From: Emiliania huxleyi CCMP1516
Taxonomy: Eukaryota
Reading direction: 5' to 3'
DNA length: 64,000 nt
Assembly: GCF_000372725.1 (NCBI RefSeq)
Contig: NW_005201791.1
Span: forward strand, 1-64,000
Shown here piece after piece: positions 20,910-56,362 of this stretch. The notes under the pieces were generated by a model that searched no databases, was not told where the DNA came from, and saw nothing but the letters and a program-made list of their open reading frames with translations. The position numbers and the translations under genes were made by a program. The stretch's first letter is position 1. Each line of letters opens with the position of its first letter.

Positions 20910-23900
20910 ATGTCTCTCTTCGCCTCGCTCGGCGCCGCCACGCTCGAGTACAGCACGCGCGAGCGTCGCGCCGCGCTCCGCCGGCCGCTCAACCTCTGGG
21001 ACTCGCACTCGCTGAGCGGCTCGAGCGAGGGCTGCCTCTCGCCACAGCATCGCGGCCAGTCCTCTTCCGACCGCGCATCGTCCGAAGACGGCGACGAGGT
21101 GCCGTCCAGCCCCGGAGAACCGCGCTCGTCGGTCGGCGACGTGCTCGGCCTCCTCGCGTCGCTGGAGCCGCTCCTCGCGCTGACGCACGCCCTCGCGCTG
21201 GAGCGGGGCACCACGACGGGGTGGGTCGCGAGCTGCGGCACGAAGCTGGCGCAGGCGGCGGCGACCCGTCGCGCCGTGACGGACGCCGCACTGGCGGCCG
21301 CGCCGGGCGACCACGCCAACCTCGCCGCTCTGCTCAGCCGCTGCCGCACCTCGGCGGACCGCGACGTCGCTGCGGCCAGCAAGGGTTCAACGAGCGCGGC
21401 CGAGGAGGGGGCGGCCTTTGTGGCGACGATGGGCGGGTACAACGCGCTGGCGTACCAGGCGCTGGCGGTGCTCTCCGAGCTCCCCGCGTGCGCCGCCGCC
21501 ACCGCCGTCTCCGAGTTTGCGGCGCTCAAAGAGACGTTTGCGCAGATCCGCGGCTATGTGACGGGGGCGCTGCTGCTGCGCGACGCGGCGCTCGCGGCGG
21601 TGCACGGCCAAGTCAAGGGGAGCCTCGTCATAGCGTTTCACCGCCGCCGCGCGTACGCGCGCTCGATCCGCCACCAGACGCCGCGCCGGCTGCTGCGCCT
21701 GATCGGTGCGGGGCTCGAGCTGCCCGCGGGCTTGGCGCAGGTCACCCACGCGCGCTCCGGGCCTTGCACATTGAATGCCATGGGGGGCTCCTGTCTCTTA
21801 GACGTGGGGTCGCGAGGGGCTTGGAGGGCCGTTTTCGATTTGGTGCTAGCCCTGCTGACAATGGGGGTGTTCCTCGCCACGGCCCTCGCCCCGCCACCTC
21901 GTGTGTGTGGAGAAGTGCGCCTCACCCGGCCTGGCCCCGCGCAGGTCGTGCAGCGCCTCGAGGTGGAGTGCGACCTCGTGGCCCTGCGCGCCACCCTCAA
22001 GCCGCAGCAGTGGTGGGGTCTCGTCACCGCCCACATCGACAGCCTCGAGACAATGCAGCACCTGCTCCTGGGCGCGTGCGCGCGGACGGCGCAGCGACGC
22101 GCCGCCGCCGTCGCGCTCGGCGCCGGCGCGCCCGCCGCGCCGCTCTCCACCGGCCCGCGCGCCGCCTCGCCGCGCCGCCGCCCCTCCCTCCGCCAGCTCA
22201 GCGACGACGAGCCGTCGGCCGGCTCGGTTGGCTCTGTCGGCTCGACGTGCTCGGCGGGTTCGGGCCCGGCGTCGCCGCCCCGCGGCGGCCACCTTCCCCG
22301 CGCAGCCGACTCGTACACGCGCCTCTTTGGAAGCCCGGGCTACACCGACCCGCCCGCGCTGCACCGGCGCCCGAGCGACCCGCTCTGCCGGCCGGCCGGC
22401 GGCAGGCCGGCAGGAGGCGCGTCGGCCGCGCCCGCGACGCTGCTCCAAGCCGCCGCGCTGCTGACGCTCGGCCGCGCGGCGGTGCGCCACGGCGCCGACG
22501 GCGCGAACGAGCTCGCCTCGCGCCTGTCGCAGCTCCCCGCCCGGAGGCTCAAGGAGTCACTCCTCGCGCTGGTCGACGAGCGGATGGCGCGCCACTCCGC
22601 CTCGCCCTCGCCCAACGCGTCGCCCGTGGTGACGCGGCTGCACGGCGCCGCCGGCGCCGAAAACACGCCGCCCGCCTCGCCGCCCGCCTCGCCGCGGAAG
22701 TCGCCTCCGAAGCCGGCGCTGCCCGAGGCGGCGCTGCTGCAGCCGCCCGACGGCGCGCGGCTGATCGGCCTCTCGGAGATCCTCTTTGCGCACCGGATCG
22801 GCGAGGGCGGCGCCGGCGCCACCTACCTGGCGCAGTGGAACGGCGCGACCGTCGCTGTCAAGGTTGCCGGCGGCGTCTGCAAGTGGCTCGAGTCGTGGCG
22901 TGCCGAGGTGGCTGCGCTGACCGAGCTGCGCCACCCGAACGTGGTCGAATTCCTCGGCTGCGTGGTGGAGCCGCCCACGCACTGCCTCGTGCTGCAGTTC
23001 TGCGAGGGCGGAGACCTGTACGAGGCGCTCCGCAGGCCGACGCCCCCGGGGCTCGCCCTCAAGGTGGGGCGCGGCGTCGCGGCGGGGATGCTCTACCTGT
23101 GCCCCCCAGCCGCAGCCGCGTCGGCCACTGCTGGGGACGCGCCCACGACCACGTCTCCGCGGTTGCGTCCTAGGCACAAGAAGAACTACATCCACCGCGA
23201 CCTCAAGTCGTCGAACGTGCTGCTCGACGCCTCGGGCACCGCCAAGCTGATGGATTTTGGGCTCTCTCGCCAGCTCGATGTCGACGCGGAGGCGAGAGGC
23301 CGCGAGAGGCCGCGAGAGGCCGCGAGAGACGCTCGCCCCTCGCCCCTCGCACCGGAGGGGGCCTCCTCACCGCACCCCCCCCTCTCCCCCCTCTCTCTCC
23401 CCCCCCTCTCTCCCCCCTCTCTCCCCCCCGCGACGCAGGAGCAGCTGACAGCCGAGACGGGCACCTACCGCTGGATGGCGCCCGAGGCGCTCTAAATGAA
23501 CTATTGATCAACTACCAATTAACTATTAATTAACCGCTGGATGGCGCCCGAGGCGCTCCCGGCGAGAGCGGGCGTGACGCGCCCCCCCTAGCCACGCCGA
23601 CGTCGGACACGAGCCTCGTCCGCAGGTGATCCGGCACGAGCCCCATATCTCCCCATATCTCCCCACATCTCCCCATATCTCGCCCTCAGGTGATCCGGCA
23701 CGAGCCCTACTCCGCCTCCGCCGACGTCTTCTCGTACGCGATGCTCTGGTTCGAGCTCATCACCCACGAGGTGCCGCGTGTGCGTGTCCCGTGTCCTTCC
23801 GTTGGGGTGGGGGGACCGAGGGGCAGGTAAATCCCTCCCCCACGTGCCCCGGGCTTCGCACGGGGTGTGCTGGGGGGCTCCTGTCTGGGGGGGGGAGATG

Positions 23901-24321
23901 CGAGCCCCCCCCCCCCCCCTGCCCCCCCCCTGTGTGTGTGCGTGGAGAACTTCACCTCACCTTGCCTTAGGTGCCGTATGCCGACCGGCCGCCGCTGCAG
24001 GCGGCCGTCTGCACGGGGCTGCAGGGCTTGCGGCCGCCGCTACCCGCCGCGACGCCGCCCTCGGTCCGCTCGCTCATCGAGCGCTGCTGGGCGGCGCCCG
24101 AGGCGCGGCCCTCGTTCGCCGAGCTGGTGGCGCTGACGGGCGATCTGGAGCCGGCGCTCTCGCAGGAGGAGCGCGCCTGGCTCGACGCGCCGGCGGGGCA
24201 CGCGGTGTCGTACGACGAGATGGCGCCGCCCAGGCCGGAGAACCAGCCGGGCGAGCGGCCGGCCGCTGCTTGCGGGGACGCTGGGGCGGCGTCGGAGGGC
24301 CCGCCGCCGCCGGCCGACTTG
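20910..24321 (+). CDS. NIT (nitrate/nitrite-sensing)-like domain fused to a TKL/Raf-like protein kinase
   Basis: N-terminal LTHALALERGTTTGWVAS..RRAVTD..LKETFAQIRG..WWGLVTAHIDSL; kinase motifs IGEGGAG, VAVK, LRHPNVV, IHRDLKSSN, DFGLS, TAETGTYRWMAPE, DVFSYA and CW..PEARPSF over six exons. Confidence 0.85.
21741..21944 (+). mobile_element. Intron derived from the retroelement 3' end
   Basis: tcacccacgcgc..gggccttgcacattgaatgcc..ccacctcgtgtgtgtggagaag matches the 6962-7100 element; gcgcaggtc is repeated at both junctions. Confidence 0.8.
23771..23970 (+). mobile_element. Intron derived from the retroelement 3' end
   Basis: Ends gtggagaacttcacctcaccttgccttag; aggtgccg is repeated at both junctions. 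Confidence 0.75.
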
Positions 24322-25149
24322 NNNNNNNNNNNNNNNNNNNNNNNNNNNNNNNNNNNNNNNNNNNNNNNNNNNNNNNNNNNNNNNNNNNNNNNNNNNNNNN
24401 NNNNNNNNNNNNNNNNNNNNNNNNNNNNNNNNNNNNNNNNNNNNNNNNNNNNNNNNNNNNNNNNNNNNNNCGCAGGGCAGTGGCACGGGCATTACACGGC
24501 GAGCGCCGCTTGGGGCAGCTTCCGAGGTGCCCAAAGAGCACGTAGGTTCAGGCCTATGATGCCACTCTCGCGGCTTGCAGCGCGTCACTCGCGCATGCTC
24601 TCCAGGAGCTATGGCGGGCGCGTGTGTGGGGCTGTAGCCTGTGTTTGGCCGGTTCTGACCCGTTTACTATCAGTATCATGTCCGGGCCACAAAAAATCGC
24701 ACACGGGTAGCGGCTCAGGGGCCCAGTAAGTCGCGGAATCGCCAAATGTCACAACCTGCGCCACCCAGGGCTGGACCTAGTCCTAAAATCTGAGGATTCA
24801 GGATTGAGGCATCGCTTCAGTGAGGCCAAAGTGAGTTTATGGATGTGTGAGAACGGTACGGGACACGAGGAAGCACGCGGACCGACTCGTCGGCGACTCT
24901 GCTGCACGCCGTTTCAGAATTTTTCTCAGCGTGAGCGAGACGTGGAAGAGTGCCACCGTCGGGTAGGACGGGTCGGCCCGGAGCATCAGAGTAGCCGTCG
25001 TGGTCGTGGCGAGCAGCGCCGGCCACTCCGGCGCCGCGTCGGCAACATGGGAGCATGTCCACCGCCACTTCGCGGTCGCAGCGCTGTTGTCGCCCAAAAC
25101 GCCGCTATGTACCTTTTCGGGCAAACTATCGAGCTGTATGTCGATTTCG

Positions 25150-25196
25150 ACTTGACGGCGGCATGGAGGCATGATGCCTCCATGCCGCCGTCAAGT
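25150..25196. repeat. Perfect palindrome with 23 bp arms and a 1 nt loop
   Basis: acttgacggcggcatggaggcat-g-atgcctccatgccgccgtcaagt. Confidence 0.95.
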
Positions 25197-25515
25197 TGGA
25201 GCCAGTCTGCGGCGACCACAGCGCTCAGAAAGGTACATAGCGAGCTTTTCAGAGTCACGCGATTGTGCGAAATCCCACACTGGTGAATTTTGGGGCGCTG
25301 TGCACCCCCTACTTTCGAGGGCGAGGAGGACGACCTACCTTCCCCGGTTCCCGGACCCTGGCAGTTTATTGGCCCAGGCCCCAATTTCATCGAATTTATT
25401 TCAAAATCTGCAGGCGCGGAGCGCCTGCGAAAATTTTGAAGAAATTTGCAGTCGGGCCTGATTTTCATCAAGATCTTTCAAATTTGCGGTGTGGAGTTGT
25501 TGGGGGGCCGGGGGT

Positions 25516-25703
25516 GGGTTAGGGTTATTAGGGTTAGGGTTAGGGTTAGGGTTAGGGTTAGGGTTAGGGAAGGGCTAGTCTTGTTGTGTCTGTATATGCT
25601 AGCGTTGCAGGGTTCTGCGCTGGGTTCTGGCCCCCAGCGCCGACGACTAAGACTCAGTCCCGCACGCTGACCTAGGGTTAGGGTTAGGGTTATAGGGTTA
25701 GGG
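25516..25703 (+). repeat. Interstitial telomeric (TTAGGG)n, two tracts
   Basis: Tracts at ~25516-25569 and ~25673-25703. Confidence 0.95.
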
Positions 25704-25784
25704 GGGGCAACCCTCGCGTCTCCACGTCTGACGACAGGAGCCCCACGGCATTCAAAGTGCAAGGCCCGTTGCGCGCGGGTGAGC

Positions 25785-25876
<92 letters not shown>

Positions 25877-26690
25877 ACGTCACTGCATCCTCTGCCGGTT
25901 CCTCCCGTCGCCTCTTCTTTGTTCGAATGTATTTCAATCCATCCTTCACGAAGCCCTCCCATGTAGCTAGCGTTCTTTGCGAATGTCTCGAAATGGCCAG
26001 CAGGCGCTGTCTGCTCGCGGTCTGTGCGGGCCGCTCGTCCTCCTCGCCCTTCTTTCGTCCTCCCATCCCTCCCCTCCACTATGGCCTTCTCGGCACTTCT
26101 TTCTCCATCCGCCTCGCCCTGCCTTTTCGTATCGTGCCGTTCGCCCTCCATTTGGTAACCTCCATGGCTGTCCGCCTCCTTTTGGGTGGCGCTCTCGATA
26201 CGGTTGCGTCAACCTCGACGTCGCTGTCGCCCTCCCCGTCCCCTCCGTCGTCCGTGCCTCGGTTCGCGTCATCGGTAGCGTCTCCGTTGTTCCCTCGTGC
26301 CCCGCCGTCGCCCTCTCTGCTCGGGCCGTTCGCGATCTCGCTCCTCCTGCGTGTCGCCCCTCCGGCTCCCCCCCTGCCTTCGTCGTCATCGTCGCTGTCG
26401 CGAAAGCCCTCCGGCCCCTCGATTCCCTCGCCTATCCCCTCCGCTGCGTCGTCCCAGTTTATATCCTCACTAGCAGGTTGGCTCGCTAGTCGCTCGCCGG
26501 CCCGCGCAGCACGCGCGGGCCTTTTTTGTGGTCGGATGTTGGTCGTCTCGAATTTGATCGTGGGCAGGGCGTGAGAAAGCTGGACAGCTCGGTCGATGCG
26601 AGCCACTTGGCCTGTCCGAGGGTTTCCGGCAACCCAGAGGGAAACCAGAGGGTCCCCAGCACTTTGCGTTTCCGGAAGTTTCCAGGGAAA
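25703..26690 (-). mobile_element. Retroelement 3' region fused to telomeric repeats
   Basis: 25703-25990 is nearly identical to 7014-7276. The extension to the gap (including a 175 aa acidic ORF at 26079-26606) is assumed, not shown. Confidence 0.7.
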
Positions 26691-27452
26691 NNNNNNNNNN
26701 NNNNNNNNNNNNNNNNNNNNNNNNNNNNNNNNNNNNNNNNNNNNNNNNNNNNNNNNNNNNNNNNNNNNNNNNNNNNNNNNNNNNNNNNNNCCCTCTCCCT
26801 CTCCCTCTCCCTCTCCCTCTCCCTCTCCCTCTCCCGCTCCCTCTCCCTCTCCCTACAGGACAGGCTGGCATGCCTAGTCCAGGACGTGTCCGAGACATGT
26901 CCCATCTAGGCGCCCTACAAGAAAGCCGCCGTGAGGGCGGGCCGGAGTTGTGCGCGGGTCCGGAATACGCCGCGGATGCGCCCGAGTGGCGCGGGAGGGG
27001 AGCCGCGCCCCCCCCCGAGTGTTTCGTCTTTGTGTGGTCGCTGGAGTGATCTGAGGTTGTACGGACTTTGAAAGACCGATGGGAGCGGCGTGTGGATTTG
27101 AGGTTGTACGGACACACTGGCATGACGCGTGATTGTGATGAACTCCCCTCCCTCCACCCGCGACCCGGCAGCACACCCTGCACGCTCCCATCGGATGGGT
27201 TCCACCCCGCTGATCAGACAGGGCGCGGGGCGAGCCACATCATCACCGGCTCGCGGCAATAAGGACACTCTCGCATCAGCTCGGAGCATGGACCGCAAAC
27301 GCACAAGTGGCTGCACGGCACCGCGAGGTGAGACTTCGGCCGCTCGAAGCATATGATGCACGACGTCTCTCCCCCCATCTGATCGATGTTTTTCCGTTCA
27401 ATACGTCTTTTTACGAAGGGTATAAACCAAAGCGACTCAGCGCTGAGGCGTC

Positions 27453-27642
27453 CTAGAAGCGGGCGCCATCTGCAAGAGAAAATTTTGTTTCATCTGGTTC
27501 CAAATGCGTCGAGTTTTCAATTACATTTTGCGATCTGTGATCTGTAAAGAGTAAACATACTACCGGTACTACTGTTAACGAGATACTGAGGTCGGCCTTG
27601 GACCACTTTTTTCGATATTGGTGTATCTTTTCAGCACACCAG
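27453..27642 (+). mobile_element. Intergenic MITE-like relative of the introner family
   Basis: Starts CTAGAAGCGG and ends gatattggtgtatcttttcagcacaccag, versus introner end gatgttggtgtattcagcacgtag. Confidence 0.6.
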
Positions 27643-27707
27643 CTGACACCAGCAGCGCTTCGAGGACTGAGCAGTGACCGGAGTGACAACAGTGAGAGAC
27701 TCAAAGC

Positions 27708-28886
27708 TCAGTGCGCACGCGCGGCCACCTCCACCCACTTGGGCTCCGCGCCGCGCTCGACGACGAGCGCGTGCTCTGCGAGGTTTACAGTCGGACAGAC
27801 GTGGCGCGGGATGAGGAGCAGCGGCGTGCCGCGCGGCGGTGGCGGCTCGCTGCTCGCCATTGGCAGGTGCTCCTCGCTGGGACCCAGCGCCTCGAGCTGC
27901 GGCACCTCCAACACGCGCGCGACTGGGCTGCCGGCCTCGCAAGCGAGTGCCTTGGAGCCCGCGTCGAGCGTGACGACGCACGGCTGCCCCGGCGCGCTCC
28001 ACGGGCGAGGGTGCGATACCACGCGCGATAGCACGAGCGCCGCGGGCAGGAGGCCCAGCGCCTCGCCGCCCTCCATCTCCTCCGACATGCTGTCGTGGAA
28101 GACGACCGTGCCCGGTGAGATGCGATGCGTCGGCGCCTCGTTGACTTTCTCGCCGTAGTAGCGCAGCGCCTCGAGGCAGGTGGGGGTGCCCGACGTGATC
28201 ACCTCTTCCACGGCGATCCCGCGAGACCTCAGCGTGCCCACCAGCACGTCAAGGGAACCATAGACCTTGTCGGCCTCCGAGCGGCGCTTCTCGGCAGACT
28301 CGTCTGAGAGGTGGCCTTCATAGTAGTGCAGCCCACGGAAGCGAGCTCCAGCAGCCGTCGCGATGGCGGCAATGTCGTCGGTCGCCTCGAAGGGTACACC
28401 GGTGCGATCATAGCCGGGGTTGATGTCGATGAAGATGTCAAGAGAGCCGGGCAGGCGCGGCGCGGCAGCGGCGTCCTCGCAGAGCACCCCGAGCCGCACC
28501 TCCGGAAACTCATCGGCGAGGTCAGCGAGCTGCTTCAGGCTGGGGCCGATGAGCGGGTACGCCAGCAGCACGTCGCCGTCCGTTATGGCGCGCCCTCGCA
28601 GGACACCGCACATGAGGCGCGCCTCCCTCACAGTGGCGCACTTGAAGTGGCGAACCCCGGAGGCGACACACGCTTCGTAGACGGGCGCCATCTTGGTGGT
28701 CTTGAGGTGCGGGCGCCAGCGTGCGGCGTCACCACCGCAGTGTGCGAGCATCGTGGCGAGGTTGTGCTTCACCTGGTCCATAAACACCACGAGCTGAGGC
28801 GAGGGTATCTCGGCGCGGAGCGAGGCGGGTAGCAGCTCCTCGTACGTGCCGCGATCCAGCGCCCCGAAGGGCTCGGCTGACTGCAT
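27708..28886 (-). CDS. Fold-type III PLP enzyme of the D-serine dehydratase/D-threonine aldolase (D-TA) family
   Basis: WRPHLKTTK, FKCATVREA, DINPGYDRTGV, GLHYYEGH, GTPT, LDAGSKA, SEEH and PRHVCPTVNL; intronless. Confidence 0.93.
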   Translation of the reverse strand: MQSAEPFGALDRGTYEELLPASLRAEIPSPQLVVFMDQVKHNLATMLAHCGGDAARWRPHLKTTKMAPVYEACVASGVRHFKCATVREARLMCGVLRGRAITDGDVLLAYPLIGPSLKQLADLADEFPEVRLGVLCEDAAAAPRLPGSLDIFIDINPGYDRTGVPFEATDDIAAIATAAGARFRGLHYYEGHLSDESAEKRRSEADKVYGSLDVLVGTLRSRGIAVEEVITSGTPTCLEALRYYGEKVNEAPTHRISPGTVVFHDSMSEEMEGGEALGLLPAALVLSRVVSHPRPWSAPGQPCVVTLDAGSKALACEAGSPVARVLEVPQLEALGPSEEHLPMASSEPPPPRGTPLLLIPRHVCPTVNLAEHALVVERGAEPKWVEVAARAH

Positions 28887-29071
28887 CGCCACCCGTACCC
28901 CCAAGGCATGTGGCGAGTACAGACACGCCTGCTATTCACAGCACAACGTCTCACTTGGCGGCTTCGGGCAGTGAAAAGCATCCCTTTTCCGGACGGACCC
29001 CCTGGTGTGAAAACGTGAGGCGTGGTCAACAACTCAGCGCTGAGGCGGCACCCGGAGCAGCACACGCTCAC

Positions 29072-29455
29072 CTAGAATCCCTTTCTGGCCCTCTGCGCTC
29101 GCAGCGACTCGTTGCGCCGAGGCGGCTCGCTGCCCTGCGGGCCGCGATTGAGCAAGCGCCGCCGAGTGCCAAAAATCGTGCCGCGGCAGCTGGGGCAATC
29201 CGTGGCGATGTCGCATTGCCCTTGGCGCGTGACGTAGTCCGCCTGCCGCGGCTTGGTCTGAGCGAGGAGGCACGTGTAGTGGAAGATGTTGCGGCAGCAC
29301 ACGCTGTAGCCCCAGCCGTCGTCCGCCGTGTGGTCGCAAAAGAGAGCCCTCGTCAGCAAGCGCTCGTCGTCGACGTCGCTGCCCTCCAAGCAGATCGAGC
29401 AGCGCGCGCCCGCCTCTAGCCACGGCGCGAGCTGCGGCGGCGGTGGCGGCGGTGG
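29072..29455 (-). CDS. RING-finger-like protein, C-terminal fragment (5' part in the gap)
   Basis: CSIC...CRNIFHYTC...CPSCR. Confidence 0.65.
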   Translation of the reverse strand, partial: PPPPPPPQLAPWLEAGARCSICLEGSDVDDERLLTRALFCDHTADDGWGYSVCCRNIFHYTCLLAQTKPRQADYVTRQGQCDIATDCPSCRGTIFGTRRRLLNRGPQGSEPPRRNESLRAQRARKGF

Positions 29456-29676
29456 NNNNNNNNNNNNNNNNNNNNNNNNNNNNNNNNNNNNNNNNNNNNN
29501 NNNNNNNNNNNNNNNNNNNNNNNNNNNNNNNNNNNNNNNNNNNNNNNNNNNNNNNGCTCTCGCTCGTGCCAGAGCCGGCCTCGACACCGAGGGTTGGAGG
29601 AAAGGGCGATCTTGACCCCCGGACTCAGCGATGGCATATCGAAATCTCTCCGTCTTTCTACAGATTGAGAGGAGTG

Positions 29677-34229: not shown

Positions 34230-34262
<33 letters not shown>

Positions 34263-34761: not shown

Positions 34762-34793
<32 letters not shown>

Positions 34794-34869
34794 GGGAGAG
34801 AGAGAGAGAGGTGAGAGAGAGAGAGAGAGGTGAGAGGGAGGGAGGGAGGGAGGGAGGGAGGGAGGGAGG

Positions 34870-34939
<70 letters not shown>

Positions 34940-35800: not shown

Positions 35801-36091
35801 TAAACAAATAAAGGGCTCACGCGCACGGCTGTCGGTCAACCCTGCGGCGCATGCGCGCCGCCAAGGCTGCTCGACAGGCGACTGGCATTGTGGCGACGCG
35901 GTCGCCGTTACTCCAACTTTGCTTTGCCGATCAAAAGCGCCCGTCCTTTGCTTTTTCGCCGCCGAAATTTAGCTTGCTGTTTTTTTCTTTATAGGCGTCT
36001 GCCACTTCCAAGCTGCGTATTCTTCTTGTATTATCGTCGAGTAGTGCAGGTACTGCGTGGGGGCGGTACGTATTCCCGTATCACGTATCAC

Positions 36092-37303: not shown

Positions 37304-38528
37304 CACTGGTCAAACTATTAGCCTCATAATGAGGAAAAGGCTAATAGCGATTTCAAATAGTGCTACTATTAGCTCAGAGGGGCTAATAGCTGAGCTTCAT
37401 AACGTCTGGAGCTATTAGAACACCACTATGAGATGGGCTAATAGCGACTATTAGGGCGCTATTAGGGCACTATGAGAGCCGAATAGTGGCCCTAATAGTG
37501 CCCTAATAGTGCGGTACCCGCGCGACGCGCACTACGCGCGGCGCGGCAAGAGCGATGGCGCCGACTCTCTAGGAGACGGGCTTCCATGAGGCAACCACGG
37601 CGAACGAGAAGGTCACCGTGGAGTCGTTGAACTTGACCGTGGTGACGTCAGGCTTGGTGGTGCTCTTCATCACCTTGACGCACCAGCCGCCGGCGGAGAC
37701 GCCGGGCCACAGCGAGGGCGGCGCGAGCAGGAAGCTGGTCGTGCGGTCCGCACGAGCGCGGGTGTTGCCTGCGCAACAGGGGCACGGGGACGAGCGTCAG
37801 CCCGGCAGCTTGCGGCGGCGCGCGCGCGCGGCGACGGTGCGCACGGCTTGGGAGAGCAGGGAGAGAGAGAGAGAGATAAGGCCGCTGCCGCCGCAGAACG
37901 CAGGATGTGGCTGCGTGCGGGGCGCGGCGGGCGCGGGCGCGCGCTCGGACCTTGCAATTTCAAACTGCGCACGCCCTGATCACGAACAGGATGCGGGCGG
38001 CGCAGAGATCTGCTGCCGCCCGGACCGCCGCCCGGGGATGACCCAGGACCTCGCCGGCGCTGCGCCGGCGAGGGGCCGAAGCCCGGCGGTTGATCACGTT
38101 CTCCACACCCGCGCGCGCTGTGCGGTCGCCGTTCCGCCTCACAAGGCTTCTCGCCGGATCCGCGATCACCGTGGATGGACGCCAAGAAGACCAGCGCTGC
38201 GCCGCACGCCGCCAAACCACCACGCTGGCGCCAGCTCGCAGAGGGTTTCTCGCTGCACGCCAGATGGTCAGCGGGCGCCGATGGCGGCATGGGCGCGACG
38301 AGCTCCGTGGCCGGCATGTCGCTATGAGGCCCAGCTATTAGGCCGCGCCGTGAAGCATGCGGCATGAATCGCGAAATCGCTAAGTGCGCATTATGAGGGT
38401 CCATTATTAGGACATCGGCTATTAGCACACCTAATAATTGCACTATTAGCCCCTCTGAGCTAATAGTAGCACTATTTGAAATCGCTATTAGCCTTTTCCT
38501 CATTATGAGGCTAATAGTTTGACCAGTG
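37304..38528. mobile_element. Non-autonomous TIR DNA transposon with CACTG ends (CACTA/CMC-like)
   Basis: ~85 bp terminal inverted repeats starting cactggtcaaactattagcc; many subterminal ctattag/ctaatag motifs; CAGCA on both flanks. Confidence 0.88.
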
Positions 38529-39880
38529 CAGCAGCATCTGCACCACCAAAGCCAGGCCACACACTCCACGCTGGCCCACAGAGTCCCACTCTAGGGTGCC
38601 CACAGGACCAAAAAAAGAAAGGAAAAAAGAAATGGGGCACTCCCGATCGCAGCACTTCATGTTGGATAGTCGAGATATTGAGAGTGTGACTAGGAGGGCG
38701 GGACGCTGGGGATTCTCAAAGGTATACCCTTGGAATGGCCGGATCCAGCCTTAAAAGTACGAGATCGCGCGCGCTTCGCGCACAGCACCGCCTGTTCTCC
38801 GCGGCTGTGTGACGACGCGTGCCGTGTGCCAGCAGAGTTGGGCGCGCGCGGCGCGACGGCGCCCGCGAGGGAAGGCGCGGGTGCAGCGGCCGCCGGCGGC
38901 CGTACCGCTCGCCAGCCAGCGCAGCAGCGGCCAGCGCAGCGGCCGCCGGCGCAGCAGCAAGATCAGCCGGTGCGCGCCTTGCGAGGCGAGTACTGCCGCC
39001 CGGCAGCCTTGAGGCGGCCGGGCGGCAGTACTCGTTCGAACTTTGCGAGCCGTGCGCGCGCCGAGGCGCCCGCGGCGCGCGCCCGCCCGGCTGCCAGTAG
39101 GAGGCGGCGCAATATGGCCTATAGTACAGCCCTTAGGAGGAGGAAGAGGCTGGCTGGCAGTGCTGTATGCCGCCGAGGGGCAGTTTTGGGGTGCTGTCCC
39201 CATCCCAGGGGGCTGCAGAAGGCGTCCGCAGCCGGGACAACCCGCCCCCCCAGCCGAGGCCGGTCGAAGCCCACTTGAGCACAGCCATGAGGAGTCCTCT
39301 TGGTGCTCCTGGCGGCCGTTGGAATGGCGAGCGCGCGCCGATGGGGGGGGGGGGGGGGTCTTGCTTGCTCCACACCGAGCGCCATCGGTCCGGACCGGCG
39401 TGCTCACCGAGGGGTGGCCTGCACAAGGTCTGAGCCGCGGGCGCTCGGCGCCAAGTGCAGTGTCACGCTCGCACGCGAAGGGGACACAAGGGAAACCCTC
39501 GTTTCCTATGTACTCGGTCCCCCAACGGAAGAGGCCTCGCTCCTATTGGAACAATCCAACATCAGATTTGCCTCGTGCGTCCCTTTTTCAATGTATGTGG
39601 TTTTTGAGCCGAAAAGCTATTTTCTTTTGGGTCCTGTGGGCACCCTACCCACGCTCCCTGGAAGCGATGCGCCGCCTTTTGCTTCTGCGCTAGTATGGGC
39701 AGCCTCTATCACAACACTACTGACCCTGGTCATTAGAGCTGCCAGGGGTAGCGTCAGGGTCAGGAGCCGGTAGGAGTCAAAACCCCCCTCATATTTGAGA
39801 CATCGTGGCCCACATACACTCGTGCATCGAGCCGTACGGTTTACGTAAGGTCGTGCATCGAGCCGTACGGTTTACGTCAC

Positions 39881-39947
39881 TCGGGGCCGCGTCCTCTCCC
39901 CCGATATTATTATTAAAAGGTGTGGAGAAGTTTACCTTACCTTACCC
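39881..39947 (+). mobile_element. Short retroelement 3' terminus with the same (CCTTA)n tail
   Basis: gtgtggagaagtttaccttaccttacc. Confidence 0.65.
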
Positions 39948-40826: not shown

Positions 40827-43800
40827 TCGGTCCCTGCGTCGCCCGTGCCTGTAGTGGCGCGCGGTGAGCCGCAAGTTGCAAAGCCGGCGAGGCGCGGGTC
40901 GTCGGCCGCAGCAACAGCGAGCGCAGAGCCGCCGATGGCGCCGCCTCCGGCCGTGCCACGTCGCTTAGCGCTGGCTGCGACGCGCGCATCGCCAAAGCCG
41001 CCGGCGGCGGCGCCGGCGGCGGCATTACCACTGCCAACCCCGCCGTTCGCGCCGCGGGCCACCGCCCTCGACTGCGGCCGAGGGGCGCGTGGCGCCGGCT
41101 TCGCGTCCGCGCTTGCCGCGCCGCTCAGCCGCTTGTGGATGAGCGCCACCGCGGCGGCGGCGACGAGGAGGAGGAGCGGCACCTGAAGCGAGAGGAACCA
41201 CGACGAGAGGGCGGTGCCGACACCAACCTCTGACCACTCCTCCTCCCCCTTCCCGCCCGCGAGCATGCCGAGGAAGGCCTCGAGCGGCGTCGCCTGCAGC
41301 GGACCGCGCCGCAGCACGGCCGCGGAGGCGACGGCGAGCAGCGGCGCTCCGGCGGCAACCATCGGCGCGAGGGTCGGCAGGTCAGCGAGGGTGGGGGCCT
41401 GTGCCATGAATCACACCGAGGTCAGGGAGGGAGCATAGCGATGTGCAGAGGACCCGAGCACCGCGGGAAACACGAGGGATGCGAAGGCAGGGAGTACAGC
41501 CGAATGCGGGCCGAGTGCAGCGGAAGACGCGTCCTCTCGAGCGCTGATTGCAATCCAAGAATGCGTCTTCCGCTTCTAGGAGTGGGCCGTCCCGCCGCCG
41601 CCGAGGGCGAGGGTGCAGCCGGCGGCGGCGAGGAGCGCGAGCGGTCCGGCGCTGAGTGCGGCGGCGGCGCCGTCGGGGGAGAGCCACTCGGAGAGGGTGA
41701 GGCGAGTCTTCTGCCCGCCCTGCCCGCCCTGCCCGCCCTGCCCGCCCTGCCCGCCCTGCCCGCCCTCGCCGCCGTCGCCGCCGTCGGTCGCGGCTGGAGG
41801 GGAGCGGAGGGCCGCGCCGAGCAGCGAGGTGTCCCGCCGCGCCAGGAGGAAGCCGCCTGAGGGACGTGTCCTGGACGTGTCCTGAACGTGTCCTGGACGT
41901 GTCCCGCGGCATCAGCAGGAGGCCGCCGAAGAATGCGCGGCTCGACAGGCGCTCGTCCAAGTGGTGGTGCGGCGCGCCGCCGCCCACGCCGAGCAGCGAT
42001 GCGTTGGCGGGGAGGGCGCTTCCCGCGAGGGCGGCGAGCGTCGCGTTGCCGCCCTGCGCCGCCGCCCCGCCCTCGTCGCGCGGCTGCCCCAGGCTGCCGA
42101 GCGTCCGCGAGGACGGGAGCAGCGACGCGTCGAGCGCGCCCAGCGCGGCGGCCAGGCTCAGCACGCACGCGGCGAAGAGGACCCGCTCAGTGCATCCAAG
42201 CCGGCGCACCTCGCCCCCGTCCAGCGCGGCGGGGCGGCCGAGCGCGCGCACCCGCCACAGGGCGAGGGCGAGGCGGAGCTTGAGGAGCAGCTTGAGGCCG
42301 CAGAGCAGCAGCAGCGCCGCCTCGGTGTACACCATCGCCTGCGCCTCGCCCCGCGCGCCAACGTCGCTCGCCGCCCAGCCCGTGAGCCTCTCGTACCCGT
42401 CGACCACGTCCACCGCCACCGCCGCCGGCAGCAGCAGCAGCACGGTGAGCCCGCCGCCCGGCACGCGGTGCGGAGAGCGCGCGAGGAGGGCGAGGGCGAT
42501 GTCCACGTCGAGGCGCACGAGCAGCATGAGCAGCGAGGCAACCTAGACGAGGTGCGGGCGAGGTGCGGGCGAGGTGCGGGCGAGGTGCGGGCGAGGTGCG
42601 GCCGAGGTGCGGCCGAGGCGAGGAGCGGCGCACCAGCAGCGCCCACGCGACAGAGAGGCCCCTCCGAGCGGCCGCCTTGAGGACGTGCAGCCCGTCGGCC
42701 GAGGCGAGCGACGAGATGGCGGCGAGTAGCTGCGTGACGGTCGCGATGGCGAGGCCTGTGCGCACCGGGGGAGGGGGGGCGTGGGAGGGGCGCAGGAGGC
42801 CGTCGGCGGCGCAGGAGGCCGTGGACGAGAAGACGTGGAGGACGACGGACGTGTCTAGGACGTGTCTAGGACGTGTCTAGGGCGTGTCTAGGACGTGTCT
42901 AGGACGTGTCTAGGACGTGTCTAGGACGTGTCTAGGGCGTGTCTAGGACGTGTCTAGGACGTGTCTAGGACGTGTCTAGGACGTGTCTAGGGCGTGTCTA
43001 GGACGTGTCTAGGGCGTGTCTAGGACGTGTCTAGGACGTGTCTAGGGCGTGTCTAGGGCGTGTCTAGGACGTGTCTAGGGCGTGTCTAGGGCGTGTCTAG
43101 GACGTGTCTAGGGCGTGTCTAGGGCGTGTCTAGGGCGTGTCTAGGGCGTGTCTAGGGCGTGTCTAGGGCGTGTCTAGGGCGTGTCTAGGGCGTGTCTAGG
43201 GCGTGTCTAGGGCGTGTCTAGGGCGTGTCTAGGGCGTGTCTAGGCGGTGGCCGTGGACGAGGATTAGCGCGACGACGGTGCAGAGCTGCAGCTTCTCAAA
43301 GAGGGAGAGGTGGGCGAAGCCGCAGCAAGCGGGAGCGTGCGCGAGCTCGGCGGCGTAGAGGGCGAGCGCGGACGAGAGCAGCAGCAGCAGCGTGCAGTGC
43401 AGGTACACGGTCGACCAGAGGAAGCGAGTGCACTTGCGTGGTGACGAGCGGCACGTGCCCGAGTCGCGGAGGCAGCCGAACGCGGCGACCATCGAGAGGA
43501 CAGGGAGCTCGAGCAGCGGCGCGGAGAGGGACGGCGCGATCCCCTCGCTGCCGTAGAGGACGCCGACAGAGCCGAGCAGCAGCGAGAGGAAGCCCAACGC
43601 GAAGAGCGACTTTGAGAGCGCGAGCTGCCGCTCCTCCGCCCTCTGCCGCCGGAACCCCTCGGCGAGCTCCTCCGCCGCGTCCCTCGACAGCGTGTCGCCT
43701 GCGATGGCCGAGCGCGCCTCCGCCTCGTCGACGTCCTCGGCAGCGCCGCCTAGCCGCGAGACTACCCGAGATGGCCCGAGATGACCCGAGGTGGCCCGAG

Positions 43801-49115: not shown

Positions 49116-50953
49116 CAGGGGGCGGGCGCCGCCGGCCGGGAGCGCTTGTCGGGTCCCTCTCTGTCAAATCTGATATCATAAGTCGAATCAGAGCGGCGTC
49201 GGCGTTGATCTGAGCCGCCGTGTGTGACACATATTGCGGCATCGGCCCGGAGGGCCGGGTAGGAGGGGTCTAGGTTACCTCTACCTCTGAGGGCCTGCGG
49301 CCCTCTTATCGATGCGGCACGTGTGACGTGAGTGTCGGTGAGAGACATATATTGGGGTTTGCGGGGAGAGCCCCGCCCCGGGCCCGGCGCGCGCAGCGCG
49401 CGGGGCGTTTTTTATGCAAACATGCAAACGCGGGACGTCTGCGCAGCCTCTAACTATCAAAATTCAACATTTCCACACCACCCGTATTTGCAACTAGTCC
49501 CATGATGCATGAAGAGTCGGTGGCCTCAAGAACGTAAGAGCCGTCTGCCGCTTGCTTGTTTAAAAAGAGCAGGCAAAGAAAGAGGACGCCACGCTGCGGA
49601 AGATGTAAGAGACGAGAGTGCTTGTGTATGAAGACACTCAGCCAACGTGGCTACCACACATCCTGAGCGGACTCCCTAGTCACCCGCGGCCGGACTCCAT
49701 CCGGCACGCGTCGCTGGGCGCTCAGAGCCGCGTCCCCTGCTCGCCACCCCGACGCTCACAAGGCGCCCGAGTCGAACGACAGGCGGCACGCGAAGACTGG
49801 TTGCAATCCCGCCGACCGCCAGGCCGCGGGATGATGTGTGCGTGGTCTTGTAGTGGGTCTCGGAAGCTCCCCTCTCGGGCTAGGAGCCTACCCCTCTCCC
49901 TTCCAGCTCGTCCGCGTCGCCCGCCGCCGCCCGCCTTGCTGGGGGCACGGTGTGCACCGCCTCCGCCGTCCACGCCTCCCGCAACGCCGCGCCGCGGCCC
50001 TCGCCCAGCCGCTGGAATGCTTGGTCGGTCCGCCACCACCGTTCGCCTTGTCCGCCGCTCGGGCCGCCGCCGTCAGCGCCGCGCCCCCGCCGACGAACAC
50101 GAGCGGATACGTGCCACCGCCACCCTCCGGTCCGCAAGAGCTCCTTATCAGCTGGTCGGCCGCCATGTGGGCCTCCGGGCCTGCCGCGGCGGCGCGGCCG
50201 ATCGAGGCCGGGCTCGGCCCGGCCCGCGACGGCTGGCCGCCGACGAGCGCGCTCGCGCTGCTCGTCAAGATGGCGGCGGTGGCGATTGCGGCGACGGTCG
50301 TTCAGTCGTTCAGCGCTCAGGCGTCTGTCGTCTGTCGTCTGTTGTCGCATTTCGCACACGCGCGCGCCGCGCGACCCGCGCGTCGCTCCGCGAGGGCATG
50401 AGCCTTCCGCGATTCGATTTCGCAGCCAAAAGCTGCTGGCTCGAACCGCGGCCGACTCTGCCACCGCGGCTGCAGCTGTTGAGCCCTCCAGAAAACTGGT
50501 GCCTCATATGCTGCCTCCCTGCGGATGCTGCCGGCAGCCTGGCGGTCCGCTGTACCTCAAGGAAGTGCAGACTCGACCCCCCCCCGCAATCTTCTACCCC
50601 CACGACTCGGAACACGAATGTGACAGGACCATCGGGTCCTTCAGCCACCAATGCGAGATCACCCGAGAGCAGCTGAGTCTGCCTCTGGCCTCGCCTCCCT
50701 CTCCTTCAGGCATTTGTGGCATCCTATGGGTCGTCCAGAGTATCGACCTCTGGCGAGTCAGCCAGCCCCACTTTGAGGGCGCCATGAAGTACAGCGATCA
50801 CCATCTCGCTGGCCTCTCCGCAAGGCCTCCCGACCGCGTCGAACTCATCGGCGCGGGCTCTCTCGGCTACGGGACCGGCCCCAGCTTCGGCTGAGGGCTG
50901 ACAAGCTGCCGAGCCCAAATCACGTGAGAGCCGTGATTTCTTGTTGGTTTTCC

Positions 50954-51051
<98 letters not shown>

Positions 51052-51206
51052 GTGGGTGTCGGTGGGCCTGACGCAATGAGACACGCTCCGCTCCAAAAGC
51101 CTCCCGAACGTTGGATTCGCACCGTAACGTCTATCTAACCGCCCGCCGCGCGGCCTGACTCATCATCACCTCACTACCGACCAACGCAGGCGCATCGTCA
51201 CGCGCC

Positions 51207-51305
51207 GGATGTAGAGCTCTACAGCTCTACAGCACTCTACAGCGCTCCAGAGCGCTCTACGTCTCTACAGCTCTACAGCGCTCTACACTCTACATCCTCT
51301 ACACC
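51207..51305. repeat. Small palindromic ctctaca-repeat element
   Basis: Inverted ends ggatgtagag / ctctacatcc with internal ctctaca repeats. Confidence 0.7.
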
Positions 51306-51455
51306 CTCAGCTCGCACCTCAACCTCTCACAGACCAGCGCACAGCGCCATACGAGGACCGGCCGCAGCACATAAAAGGGTGGGCGGGCAGTGGGCGTGTG
51401 TGCGCGCGCGGTGGTGACTGGTGTGTGTGTCCGGTGTGTGTGTGTGTGTGAGTGA

Positions 51456-51498
<43 letters not shown>

Positions 51499-51870
51499 TG
51501 AGAGTGAGTGAGTGAGTGTATTGTGTGACCGCTGTGTGTGTGTGTGTGGACTGTCGACTGTGAAAGGATACAGGACCATCGGGTTTTGAAACAGAGATGA
51601 AGAAAAATGGCATGGCATGCGTGTAACGTGTAAGTATACAGTAACGCGTACTAGTAGTACAGTGAGTGATCTACACCCTTCCCACTAACTGTACCAATCC
51701 TCGCTCCCACCTTCACTTCCAGCCCTAGCAGTCCGCCTGGTCCATGCTGAGCGGCGGCGCGGGAAGGTTAACGCGCTGCGTCGATCCACAGATACAGATG
51801 CGGCACACGCAACGCGCCAAAAGGAGCAGCGAGGTTGGCGTGCCCCGTGGCCTCGCCCTGTGCCTAGCCG

Positions 51871-52933
51871 CTAGTCGGCGGACGCCGCCCTCTGCAGCTC
51901 GCGCGCAGAGGCGAGGAACTCGTCCAAGCCCATCTCGCGCAACAGCACGAGCGCGTGCGCCTAACGAACGACTCAGTCATCGATGAATGGAGGCCCATCT
52001 CTCGCGCAGCAGCACGAGCGCGTGGCGCCGCGCGCAGCTCGCGGCAGCTGTGCGCCGCAAAAGCGTCGGCGCCGAGCAGCGTGGCGAACTCGGCGTACTG
52101 GCGCGCCTGCGCCATCTGCGCGAGGTGCGAGAAGGGCCCGTCGTACTCCGGCGAGGGGAAGGAGGCGTCGAGCTGCGAGAGGAAGCAGGCAGCGAAGGAG
52201 TCATTGAGCGCCGCGGTGTCGGCCGGAGAGCACGCCACGGCGTGCGTCGCTTCGGCGATGGAGAAGCGGAACCAGACGTTGCGGTAGCCCCACACGCGCA
52301 CCGCCCGCGCAGCCTCGGGGTCGCCCTCCCGCCACAGCCGCAGCGCCTCCGCCACCGCCTGAAGCACCTTGAAGTGCGTGTCTGGGCCGGAGCCCTCCGG
52401 GTCGAACGCCACGGTCACCACATCCGGCCTCGTCTCCTAATTGACTCATTCATCACGAGTGGAGCTATTGACTCTCATTGCAGCCGCCACGTCGAGCCCC
52501 GTCTCCTCGAGGGCGGCGAGGATCGGCCTCGCGTCTCGCCGTGTCGGCTCCTCGGTAAAGCGCTCGCCCTTGTAGAAGCCAAGCCGCAGGTGCGACACCT
52601 GTGCCGTCCAAAGCCGTGGTACGCCCAGATTAGCCGAGATCGGCCGAGATCGAGAGCGGCCGAGTATTGGGCCGAGAGTACACCTCGTTCCGCCCGAAGC
52701 CGTGGTAGGCCCAGAGCAGGTCGGCCTCGAACTCGCGCAAGCCGCCCTTGAGGCGCTGGAGCAGCGGCGCATCCTTTGCGCCGTCGAGCTGAGGTGACAT
52801 GTCTCGGGCATGTCACGGACGTGTCGTGGACATGGAGGTCCGAACGGGGCGGCGAGCGGCTCCTGCGATGCGAAGTAGTGCGCCGCGGCGGAGCACGCAT
52901 CTGCGAGGAGGGCGGGAGAGGCGGAGGGAGAGA

Positions 52934-52967
<34 letters not shown>

Positions 52968-54390
52968 TGCACGCGAGAGTGACGACGCCAGCTGCGGGGC
53001 GAATGCGCCGAGCTCCTCCTCCGCCTGTACTCATCATGAATGATGACTGACTCATGCTTGACTCATCAAGGCGAATGCGCGGCTCCTCCTCCGCCTCTCG
53101 CGCAAGCAGCACCTCTTGAGCACACCGCGCTGTCCGCTGAGCCACCGCCGCCCTCAGCCCCGCCTGGTCGCGCGCTGCGAGGGCGGCCAAGTACCTCCTT
53201 GCGTCCGCGTCGGGGCCGGCCGGGCCTATGATATGAGATCAGATGAGATCAGATGAGATCAGATGAGATGAGATGTTTGTCTGTGTGTTTGCATGTGTGT
53301 GTGCAGAGAGAGACCGAGCCTGCGTCTGGCGCCAGTCCTCCTGCCGCACAGAGTGCCGCGAGGGGGGAGTCCTTGCGTCGGAGCTCGGCGGCGGCTGCCT
53401 CGAGCCGCTCGCGCGCGAAGGCATTTGTGACGGCGTTGAAGCCCGACGTGGCGTAGAGGAAGCGGTGCGTTGCGGTCGGGTCACGCACGAGGCGGCGGAC
53501 CAGTGGCAGGTAGCCTGTTCATGTGAACGACAAGTCACGAGTGATAGTCGCGTTAGAGGCGCGGTGCGCCCAGCGGCGGGTACCGAGCATGATGTCGTCA
53601 TGGTGCGGGGCCGTATGGACGTATGACCGGCCAGGCACGTCGGAAGCGCCCGCCGCCAGCCTCGCCTGCAGTGCTTGCTTCACCGCCGCCGCCGCCGCCG
53701 CCACAGCCTCCCTCTCCATCGCCGTTATGCCACGGCCGCCGCTGCCGCCGCCGTTGCTGCCGCCGCCGCCGCCGCCATCGCCGCCGCTGGCGAGGGCGGC
53801 GGCGCAGCGGGGATGGGACGCAACGTCGTCTGGAGTGAGCTGGTCGAGCCGCTTGCCAAGGCAGAGTGCGAGGTCGCAGAATGCGTCCACCGCGGCAGGC
53901 GGAACGGCGGCGGCGGCGGTGGTGGCGGCGGCGGTGGTGGTGGCGGCGGCGGTGGTGGTGGCGGCGGCGGCGCTCCAGCTGGACAGTGGCGGCGCGGCGC
54001 GGAGGGCGGCGATGGCGTCAATGTCGCGCCGCGCCCCGAGCTTGCTTGCAGCTGAGCGGGTCAGTGCGAGCCTAAGGTAAGGCAAGGCAGGGCAAGCGTC
54101 TCCACACACACGAGGTGGTGGGGCAAGGGCCATGCAACCCCCTCGCGACACGTCTAGACGACAGGAGCCCGCGTAAAACGTGCAAAGCCCGGTGTGCGTG
54201 GATGAGCGGTGTGGTGTGCGTGAGCTTGTGGGCGGTGTGAGTGAGTGAGTCAGTCAGTCAGTGAGTGTGAGCGAGTGTGCGAGTGCGTGCTTGCGCGCGT
54301 GTGCGCGCGTGTGCGTGTGTGCGTGTGTGTGCGTGCGTTGCGCGCGTGTGCGTGCGTGCGTGCGTGCGTGCGTGCGTGTGTGCGTGTGTG

Positions 54391-54466
<76 letters not shown>

Positions 54467-56362
54467 AGTGTGCGTGTGTGTGTGCATGTGTGTGTGTGCA
54501 GAGCCTTGCAGAGGGCAAGCAGCGAAGCGCCGAGCCAGGCACCGCGTCGCTCGCGGGCGCCTCGCACGCTCGCTGCACCACCCGCGCCTTCGCATCGCCC
54601 GCTGCCATGAGGTAGGCGACGCAACGCTCGTTGAAGCAGACCGTGCCGAGGCCGATCGTCACCACCTGGGAGAGGAGAGGGCAGTCGCGGGACCCTCGCG
54701 GGCAGCCGGGAGGTGCAAGCAGCAGGGAGATGCAAGCAAGGAGAGGACGCATATGCTGAGAGGTGCCGAACCCATACTGTGACCTCAGAGCATATGGCCA
54801 GGGGATAGGCGGCAGCGGCGTGGAGAGGGGCAGCGTGGGTGGAGCCCACCGCGCCGCGCCGCGCCGCCTCGATCCCGCCCAAATCTCCCGCCGCCGCCGC
54901 CTGCGTCGCGTAGTTTGTCTTGGTCAGCCGCGTCACGGAGTGCCGCCCCGAGCCTAGTCCACACGCGCGGATGACTCACGAACGAACGACTGGCGCCAAT
55001 CCACACACGCGGAGTACTTATGAATCAATCAGTTGGCCAACCGCGTCGTGGAATCCCCCCCCCCCCCCCCCTCCTCCCCCTCCGGCGGCGGCGGCGGCGG
55101 CGGTACGTCTTGGGTCTGCAAGTAGAAGTAGCCCGCACCGGCGCAGTTGAAGGCGACGTGACCGTCCGGACCGATGCCTGCGGGATAAATCGCACCGATG
55201 AGTCGCACCGATGAGTCCCGCCTCGAGGGCATGGGGTGTGGGGAGTACCAAGAGAGATTGGGGCGGAGCTGTTCCGCCTCTAGGAAGTCCGGGCGGAAGC
55301 GCGGCTCTTGTGCAGAGTAGTCAGAGCACCGCGCGAACACGAGGGAGGCGAATACAGCTGAGTACGGCTGAATACGGTGAAGCGCAGCGGAAGACGCGTC
55401 CTCTCGAGCGCTAGTCTTGGAATGCATGAATATACGCTTTCTTCTAGGGCCCGACGCCGCCCAGGAAGAAGCCGATCCCACCCATGCCTCGCACCTTGGC
55501 CTCGAAGTCGCTGCAGTACTGGTCGACCTACGTGCTGAATACACCAACATCAGGGCGGGAATACGGCACTGCGGAGGGAGAGCACCGCGTGAATACAAGG
55601 GAGGCGACTACAGTGAATACGGCTGAATACGGCCGAACACAGCTGAGTACGTGTCCTCTCGAGCGCTACTTGATATACAAGAATCTGTCCCGCTTCTAGG
55701 CTGGTCGACGGCGGCGAGCGCGCGCTTCTGCGCCGCCTCACGTGCCGTGGCCGCCTGCGCACAAGGCATTGGAGTGGCCGCTGCGAGATCACTGCTCTGC
55801 GCCGCCTCGCGCGGACCGCCTCGCGATCGCGCAGCGTAAGGTCGACGCCGTCAGCGAAGAGCTGCCCGGCGTCGCAGCCGGCGTCGCAGCCGAGCGTCCA
55901 GAGGCCGTCCATCAGCAGCGCCTTGTCTGCGTCCAAGCCGATCGCGTCGATGTAGAGCAAGCGCACGTAGTTTGTGAAGCGGTTCGGGTGGTCAGGGTGC
56001 ATCGGGTAAAAGTCGTCGAGCTGGACGAACCGGAGCGAGGCCATATCGGGGACGCCAGCAGAGAGGCTGATCCCTCCTTCCCGCAACAGCTGCAGCGTCG
56101 ACGGGTCGGCCGACGCCCAGCCACGCAGGAGGCGGCTGGTCCAGGCGATAAAGTGCTCTGGTGTCCGGCCGGTTGGCAGCGCAACCACGCCGTCCGGGTG
56201 GCTCTGCGCCCACTCCAGGAATCGGAAGGCGCATAGGCGGCCGAGCGCGGGGAAGCTGTCCACTTCGATGACACCAATCTTCTCTTCGCCGAGCCGGAGG
56301 GCGGAGCGACCGCTGGCAGCAAGGGCCGCTTCCTCGACGGCGGAGCGATCGCTGGCAGCCAT
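51871..56362 (-). CDS. nagB: Glucosamine-6-phosphate deaminase fused to a PIG-L/LmbE-like deacetylase domain (long NagB type); multi-exon
   Basis: [79 protein letters not shown] and [14 protein letters not shown]. Confidence 0.92.
54072..54504 (-). mobile_element. Intron derived from the retroelement 3' end (nagB)
   Basis: (CA/CACG)n, then ggctcctgtcgtc...ccaccacctcgtgtgtgtggaga...ccttaccttag acceptor; aggctc at both junctions. Confidence 0.82.
55178..55457 (-). mobile_element. Introner-like intron copy F (nagB)
   Basis: CTAGAAG start with family motifs; duplication gcgtcgggcc/gcatcggtcc. Confidence 0.75.
55528..55709 (-). mobile_element. Introner-like intron copy G (nagB)
   Basis: CTAGAAGCGG...TTCAGCACGTAG; duplication ctggtcgac at 55519-55527 and 55701-55709; GT donor comes from the duplication. 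Confidence 0.88.

What the first reader, a model, noticed from the sequence alone, without database searches (positions are those of the whole stretch)
21741..54504. Introns made from a retroelement 3' end: the (CCTTA)n tail acts as the 3' splice site
Seen: introns 21741-21944 and 23771-23970 (kinase) and 54072-54504 (nagB) consist largely of the same sequence as the intergenic retro 3' ends at 6962, 25703 and 62930. All are sense to the host gene. The pyrimidine-rich tail ends at the acceptor (..ccttgccttAG, ..ccttaccttAG; degenerate in 21741-21944), and AG|G-containing duplications (gcgcaggtc, aggtgccg, aggctc) span both junctions. Inference: 5'-truncated insertions at AG|G sites yield immediately spliceable introns, i.e. 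an RNA-mediated introner, which is far less documented than DNA-transposon introners.
Basis: partly seen in the sequence, partly recalled or inferred. Interest (0 to 1): 0.85.

Follow-up and report, generated by a model that had tools for sequence, protein, structure and literature searches.

The report
Retrotransposon tails become new algal introns
In the bloom-forming alga Emiliania huxleyi, three RNA-confirmed introns consist largely of the shortened back end of a copy-and-paste retroelement, which likely turns into a cleanly spliced new intron when it lands in a gene's own direction at a splice-like site.

Summary
Confirmed, with a refined mechanism. All three introns are spliced in RNA contigs at the stated ends and retained in DNA contigs. 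They are homologous to free copies of one retroelement 3' end. A metagenome scan gave 120 more loci: variable 5' truncation, (CCTTA)n tails ending in any phase, variable target-site duplications. One locus carries a parent ORF with RNase H; a relative has a LINE-type RT. Coding sequence directly after the tail is sense in 19 and antisense in 0 of 109 loci. By eye, 14 of 24 inspected loci are whole introns. Corrections: the tail gives the pyrimidine tract and often a branch-like motif, while the AG and the donor come largely from the duplicated target. Free copies show no clear AG|G targeting, so selection likely filters. Some copies only extended older introns. Non-LTR introners are already listed (about 5% of classified families, PMC12130899), but none for this species. 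Intron absence in orthologues was not tested. New variant of a known kind; interest 0.72.

The parts
21741..21944 (+). Intron 1 of the NIT-domain kinase; GT-AG; element homology starts at its second base; degenerate tail; 9-nt repeat across both junctions
   Evidence: 204 nt, no stop if retained
23771..23970 (+). Intron 2 of the kinase; GT-AG; element homology 23836-23969; 8-nt repeat across both junctions
   Evidence: kinase profile positions 177-199 then 204-255 on the two exons
54072..54504 (-). Intron of the nagB-like gene; GC-AG; CA/GCAC microsatellite plus element core 54207-54072; 6-nt repeat across both junctions
20910..24321 (+). Host gene: NIT domain plus protein kinase, runs into an assembly gap
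51870..56390 (-). Host gene: glucosamine-6-phosphate deaminase-like (nagB); ends approximate
6962..7274 (-). Free 5'-truncated copy (type A) with intact (CCTTA)n tail
6817..6961 (.). 145-bp perfect target-site duplication, copy on the tail side
   Evidence: 100% to 7275-7419
7275..7419 (.). 145-bp perfect target-site duplication, copy on the 5' side
25700..26469 (-). Longer type A copy: end of the parent ORF, CA tract and core; 3' end cut, no tail
   Evidence: 91-96% to L073
25672..25700 (-). (CCCTAA)n telomere-type repeats fused to the cut 3' end of the 25703 copy
   Evidence: sequence
61914..63075 (+). Type B element: same 3' end and tail behind a different upstream region; 5' limit not determined
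   Evidence: 89% to L038 over 1.2 kb
61898..62734 (+). 278-aa ORF of the type B element; multi-copy family without a known domain
39920..39946 (+).
   Evidence: 16.7 bits

Best explanation
These introns consist largely of the shortened 3' end of a repeated element whose long form encodes an RNase H domain and is likely a LINE-type retrotransposon, and each likely became an intron when a copy landed in the sense direction in an exon with a target-site duplication containing AG|G. Steps: (1, inferred from anatomy) target-primed reverse transcription starts at the (CCUUA)n tail and usually stops early, often in the CA tract, leaving roughly 25-400 nt between two copies of the target; (2, inferred) insertion is not specific for AG|G; (3, sequence shown, function inferred) where the duplicated target holds AG|G followed by T, C or A, the upstream copy gives the donor and the downstream copy completes the acceptor AG, while the tail gives the pyrimidine tract and often a yTnAy branch-like motif; (4, shown for three introns) splicing removes the element plus one target copy and restores the reading frame; (5, inferred) other exonic insertions are removed by selection, and this host's tolerance of GC and GA donors widens the set of usable sites.
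For: RNA skips at exact ends, DNA retains them. Element lengths from 23 nt to over 4 kb with a shared 3' end. Variable exact flanking repeats in free copies, for example 9, 11, 14, 15 and 145 bp. L073 holds a 1309-aa ORF ending just before the CA tract, with RNase H at E 2.6e-5, just under the Pfam cut-off; relative P0135 has RVT_1 (E 6.6e-6, under the cut-off) whose best solved matches are R2 and L1 ORF2. Of 109 unique loci with enough flank, coding-like sequence directly after the tail is sense in 19, antisense in 0; 14 of 34 AG|G-ended versus 5 of 75 others, Fisher p 3e-5. Pfam hits below 1e-5: 5 of 104 sense frames, all at AG|G ends, 0 of 95 antisense frames. Non-intronic copies are unbiased to nearby coding DNA, 13 sense and 15 antisense of 81. 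14 of 24 inspected loci read as whole introns; exact junction repeats of 11, 12, 7, 8 and 9 nt in L051, L052, L084, L109, L119. L052 exons continue one peptidase M3 profile (79-124, then 127-166) across a GA donor. GC donors 56-65% and GA about 4% in this species (PMC4028052 passages).
Against: No orthologue or strain lacking any of these introns was seen; the DNA runs laid carry them where they give cover. The RT of the parent itself was not recovered (L073 starts after it); the LINE call rests on a relative 35% identical in the RNase H region. No shuffle control of junction-repeat length was run, and AG|G is common at donors here anyway. L076 has only AG|G repeated and L111 lacks AG at the donor. 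9 of 31 intronic tails have no yTnAy motif 10-45 nt from the AG, including intron 3. Four sites are insertions into older introns. The 28-locus intronic class was picked by eye; only the three window introns have RNA support. Intronic copies are mostly an older subfamily (20 of 28 versus 4 of 81), which plain filtering does not fully explain.
Confidence: 0.8

Rival explanations
1. The element inserted into introns that already existed and replaced or extended their 3' end; the intron positions are old.
For: Seen directly in some loci: in L018/L074 the duplicated target is the acceptor of an older intron; L072, L102 and L114 sit just upstream of an older acceptor. Intron 2 and L094 carry 64 and about 130 nt of non-element 5' sequence.
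Against: In intron 1, L084, L093, L052, L078, L051 and L109 the element or its CA tract starts within about 0-15 nt of the donor, and the first intron bases repeat the start of the next exon, leaving no room for an older intron unless it was deleted precisely.
Confidence: 0.1
2. An intron-specialised subfamily spreads on its own: spliced-out intron RNA or pre-mRNA ending in tail-AG is copied by the LINE enzyme into new genes.
For: 19 of 22 intronic cores form one clade (FastTree support 0.962) with only 2 of 21 free cores; marker present in 20 of 28 intronic versus 4 of 81 other copies; L111 has the acceptor AG without AG at its donor.
Against: Intronic copies have variable 5' ends, are more diverged (nearest neighbour 92% versus 97%), and several come from the young free subfamilies (L051, L052, L061, L093). 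An older wave whose free copies were lost fits equally. In several introns the AG is target-derived.
Confidence: 0.07
3. Double-strand-break repair captured element cDNA or DNA as filler, creating the duplications without retrotransposition.
For: The 25703 copy is cut and fused to telomere-type repeats; other introns of the window also begin with a copy of the next exon (noticed in passing); extra 5' sequence in some copies.
Against: Nearly all of 120 loci keep the same 3' end and tail while 5' ends vary, a polarity expected from reverse transcription and not from filler capture (the scan pattern sits near the 3' end, which favours such copies).
Confidence: 0.03

Closest known systems
Non-LTR-derived introners of Gozashti et al. 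2025 (PMC12130899; section 6, passages and supplementary file 8 read)
   Same: Retrotransposon-derived sequences that make up whole introns in unrelated genes; several rows are annotated 'co-opt 5' carry 3'' or 'co-opt both'. 14 rows are classed non-LTR, one in a haptophyte (Pavlovales).
   Different: The main text mentions non-LTR twice and gives no mechanism. E. huxleyi has three families there (6, 5 and 45 copies; Unknown, Unknown, LTR), none non-LTR. Their filter needs matching 5' and 3' ends and drops simple-repeat families, which would miss variably truncated copies. Their family sequences were not seen, so overlap with fam24 or fam11 cannot be excluded.
Transposon insertion at AGGT proto-splice sites (Yenerall and Zhou 2012, PMC3443670, passages)
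   Same: Duplication of an AG|G site gives both donor and acceptor; the coding sequence is restored. The review asks whether any transposon is predisposed by its own sequence.
   Different: Here a pyrimidine-rich tandem tail supplies internal 3' signals in sense orientation and the event recurs across many genes.
Rice CatA SINE intron and Alu intronization (as described in PMC2394776, passages)
   Same: A retroposed element creates a new intron.
   Different: Single or few cases; Alu cases are in 3' UTRs, alternative, and the poly(A) tail works as a pyrimidine tract only in antisense. Here the tail is pyrimidine-rich in sense and the introns are in coding regions.
DNA-transposon introners with TSD-recruited splice sites (PMC9860276, passages)
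   Same: Splice sites partly or wholly recruited from the target-site duplication; non-GT donors.
   Different: No terminal inverted repeats, no fixed length, variable duplication length, one-sided truncation and strict sense orientation.

Membership tests
Introner (intron-generating TE) | Homologous sequence fills introns of unrelated genes | tested here: met
   kinase, nagB, peptidases M3 and M41, kinesin, alkaline phosphatase
Introner (intron-generating TE) | Spliced precisely, frame restored | tested here: met
   3 of 3 window introns; metagenome loci untested by RNA
Introner (intron-generating TE) | Homology reaches both intron boundaries consistently across copies | tested here: inconclusive
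   3' boundary consistent (tail 20-64 nt, median 25); 5' boundary varies by truncation
Introner (intron-generating TE) | Intron position absent in orthologues or empty alleles | not tested
   No eukaryote genomes available; DNA runs X8 and X2 carry the window introns where covered; young introns of the loci were not examined in other strains
Non-LTR retrotransposon (LINE) | Variable 5' truncation with shared 3' end | tested here: met
Non-LTR retrotransposon (LINE) | Simple-repeat 3' tail and variable-length TSD | tested here: met
Non-LTR retrotransposon (LINE) | Non-LTR reverse transcriptase in the same element | tested here: inconclusive
   L073 begins downstream of the RT position; RNase H present; relative P0135 has RT closest to R2 and L1
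Non-LTR retrotransposon (LINE) | APE or restriction-like endonuclease; clade assignment | not testable with these tools
   N-terminal part not recovered; no reference RT set held
TIR/MITE introner | Terminal inverted repeats and fixed length | tested here: not met
   Lengths vary widely, ends are a truncation point and a tandem tail
SINE | Fixed 5' head from a Pol III gene | tested here: not met
   Upstream of the core lies the parent ORF end (type A) or a 278-aa ORF (type B), not a fixed short head; no tRNA or Rfam scan was run

The most novel reading that the evidence does not exclude
E. huxleyi hosts a LINE whose tail is a ready-made 3' splice cassette and which has spawned an intron-specialised subfamily that keeps spreading through RNA; retro-insertions with duplicated exon starts would then be a main source of this alga's introns and of its majority GC donors.
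Probability: 0.2. Interest if true: 0.9.

Novelty: new variant of a known kind. Interest (0 to 1): 0.72.

Why it matters
How new spliceosomal introns arise is a long-standing question, and RNA-based routes are thinly documented. This family shows parent, free copies, young and old intronic copies and RNA-verified splicing in a species with many sequenced strains, so intron birth by retrotransposition can be counted, dated and tested in a minigene. It also suggests why screens that need matching 5' ends undercount LINE-derived introns, and offers a testable reason for the GC-AG majority in E. huxleyi.

Tried and rejected
No whole genome is held, so no genome-wide count. No RT among 393 window reading frames of 90 aa or more. 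The pattern found nothing in viral contigs. Word-index protein searches gave one RT-less relative of the parent and nothing for the nagB exon. The Atlas gave no usable hit for the type B ORF. No convincing TSD for the 62930 copy. Runs X13 and X3 gave no cover at intron 3; that shows nothing. Strict AG|G targeting was rejected: exact tails of free copies end in all five phases (5, 14, 12, 15, 7) with G 16, C 16, A 12, T 9 next. The automatic donor finder often chose the wrong donor, so donors were read by eye. An antisense mode, where the reverse tail reads like a donor, was looked for and not found (0 of 109). Earlier scan notes held nothing. A shuffle control for junction-repeat length and a strain presence/absence test on a young intron were not obtained and stay open.

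Full report
Organism. The window is 66% GC and its ORF at 61898-62731 is 99% identical to a protein named for Emiliania huxleyi CCMP1516. No whole genome is held.

Observation. The three introns match the free copies well above shuffled controls. RNA contigs from two studies skip 204 and 200 nt with GT..AG ends and 9 and 8 ambiguous letters, while two DNA runs do not show those joins. Intron 3 is skipped in RNA run X11 (433 nt) and present in DNA run X8; X8 is near-identical to the window and may not be independent. Retaining introns 2 and 3 gives stops; intron 1 is in frame without a stop, so RNA was needed for it. In X8 and X2 intron 1 is 97 and 114 nt shorter inside (table 8), so it is decaying differently between alleles.

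The family. Five duplicate pairs were reduced to one each and six loci with under 75 nt of flank were dropped, leaving 109. Copies share the 3' end and start anywhere from 23 nt to over 4 kb upstream. Free copies often have short exact flanking repeats of differing length, and the 6962 copy has 145 bp. Two upstream types share the end: type A (6962, 25703, L073) and type B (62930, L038) with a multi-copy 278-aa ORF.

The parent. L073 holds an open frame of 1309 aa that stops just before the CA tract. It has RNase H (E 2.6e-5, 24.8 bits against a cut-off of 25.8) and a weak SET match. A search of 1.84 billion representatives gave 249 relatives. Of 12 long ones scanned, one has RVT_1 upstream of the shared region, two RNase H, one chromo and one SET. 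That RT best matches R2 (E 0.001) and L1 ORF2 among solved structures. The parent's own RT was not seen and its clade is unassigned.

Orientation and splice geometry. A codon model trained on window exons scored the 90 nt after each tail on both strands: above 5 and better than the other strand in 19 loci sense and 0 antisense (two-sided binomial about 4e-6, my arithmetic). 14 of these are among the 34 loci with AG|G at the tail end and 5 among the other 75; three of those five (L072, L085, L114) have AG|G a few bases further on. AG|G at the tail end is 34 of 109 overall against 16% for equal windows of flank. Pfam agrees: 5 strong sense hits, all AG|G-ended, none antisense. Non-intronic copies show no strand bias to nearby coding DNA (13 sense, 15 antisense, 53 uncalled). 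I printed 24 loci chosen as AG|G candidates: 14 read as whole introns with a donor at or near the element's 5' end, 6 lack the 5' flank, 2 are one site at an older acceptor, 1 lies in an older intron and 1 is non-coding. In i1, L052, L084 and L119 the repeat extends upstream of the AG, so the AG is target-derived. L052 uses a GA donor with a continuous peptidase profile across it; GA and GC donors are documented for this species (PMC4028052, passages).

The tail as a 3' cassette. In 31 intronic copies the stretch from core to AG is 20-64 nt (median 25) and 82% pyrimidine; 22 of 31 have a yTnAy motif at 10-45 nt (the branch consensus is recalled, not measured for this species). Intronic tails have drifted: CCTTAC is 22 of 78 units against 208 of 230 in other copies, with CCTGAC and CCTCAC 12 each. 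Whether this is selection or age is open.

Age structure. 19 of 22 intronic cores fall in one clade with 2 of 21 free cores, and they are more diverged (copies with under 95 nt of element were left out). Young subfamilies of both types also give intron-like copies. Loss of old free copies is the simpler reading; an intron-specialised subfamily is not excluded.

Literature. PMC12130899 (section 6, passages, supplementary files 1-12 searched, file 8 rows read; files 13-14 not searched) lists non-LTR introners at about 5% and three E. huxleyi families, none non-LTR. PMC9860276, PMC3443670, PMC2394776, PMC3488318, PMC4028052 and bioRxiv 2020.10.14.339549 were read as passages only. Nine full-text searches showed no description of this element or of a LINE tail acting as an intron 3' cassette; subscription papers and Repbase are not covered.

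Verdict. Real, recurrent and best explained as LINE-derived intron gain through target-site duplication plus a pyrimidine tail, filtered by selection. The missing proof is absence of these introns in orthologues.

Noticed in passing
window 23610-23710 (+): A 10-bp tandem-repeat block lies between two copies of about 21 bp that include an acceptor and the start of the next exon; RNA removes it within one 204-nt intron. It looks like another insertion with a TSD at an existing acceptor.
   Followed up: partly
window 23470-23560 (+): An AT-rich insert of about 40 nt flanked by a duplication of about 26 bp that spans the donor of the same intron.
   Followed up: no
window 55530-55715, 55180-55455 and 41390-41580 (-): A second repeat family opens three introns right after an exact or decayed copy of the next exon's start; possibly another intron-forming element.
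   Followed up: no
window 25520-25700: Two internal (TTAGGG)n tracts; one is fused to the cut 3' end of the element at a C-run, as expected if a telomerase-healed end primed cDNA synthesis.
   Followed up: partly
window 6817-6961 and 39681-39808: The 145-bp target of the 6962 copy is itself a repeat (90% identical at 39681), and a stub of the element lies about 110 bp from that second copy.
   Followed up: no
window 37304-38528: 86-nt perfect inverted repeats 1053 nt apart, like a small DNA transposon.
   Followed up: no
window 53225-53322 (-): The next nagB intron starts with a CA-rich stretch resembling the 5' part of intron 3.
   Followed up: no
L028 and L116: Tandem element 3' ends: two units within one intron (L028) and a head-to-tail run of short tail units (L116).
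   Followed up: partly
L073 1615-5505 (-); P0136, P0138: The parent family carries SET-like and chromo domains beside RNase H, which may bear on insertion-site choice.
   Followed up: partly
window 20910-24321: Host protein joins a nitrate/nitrite-sensing NIT domain to a eukaryotic protein kinase.
   Followed up: no
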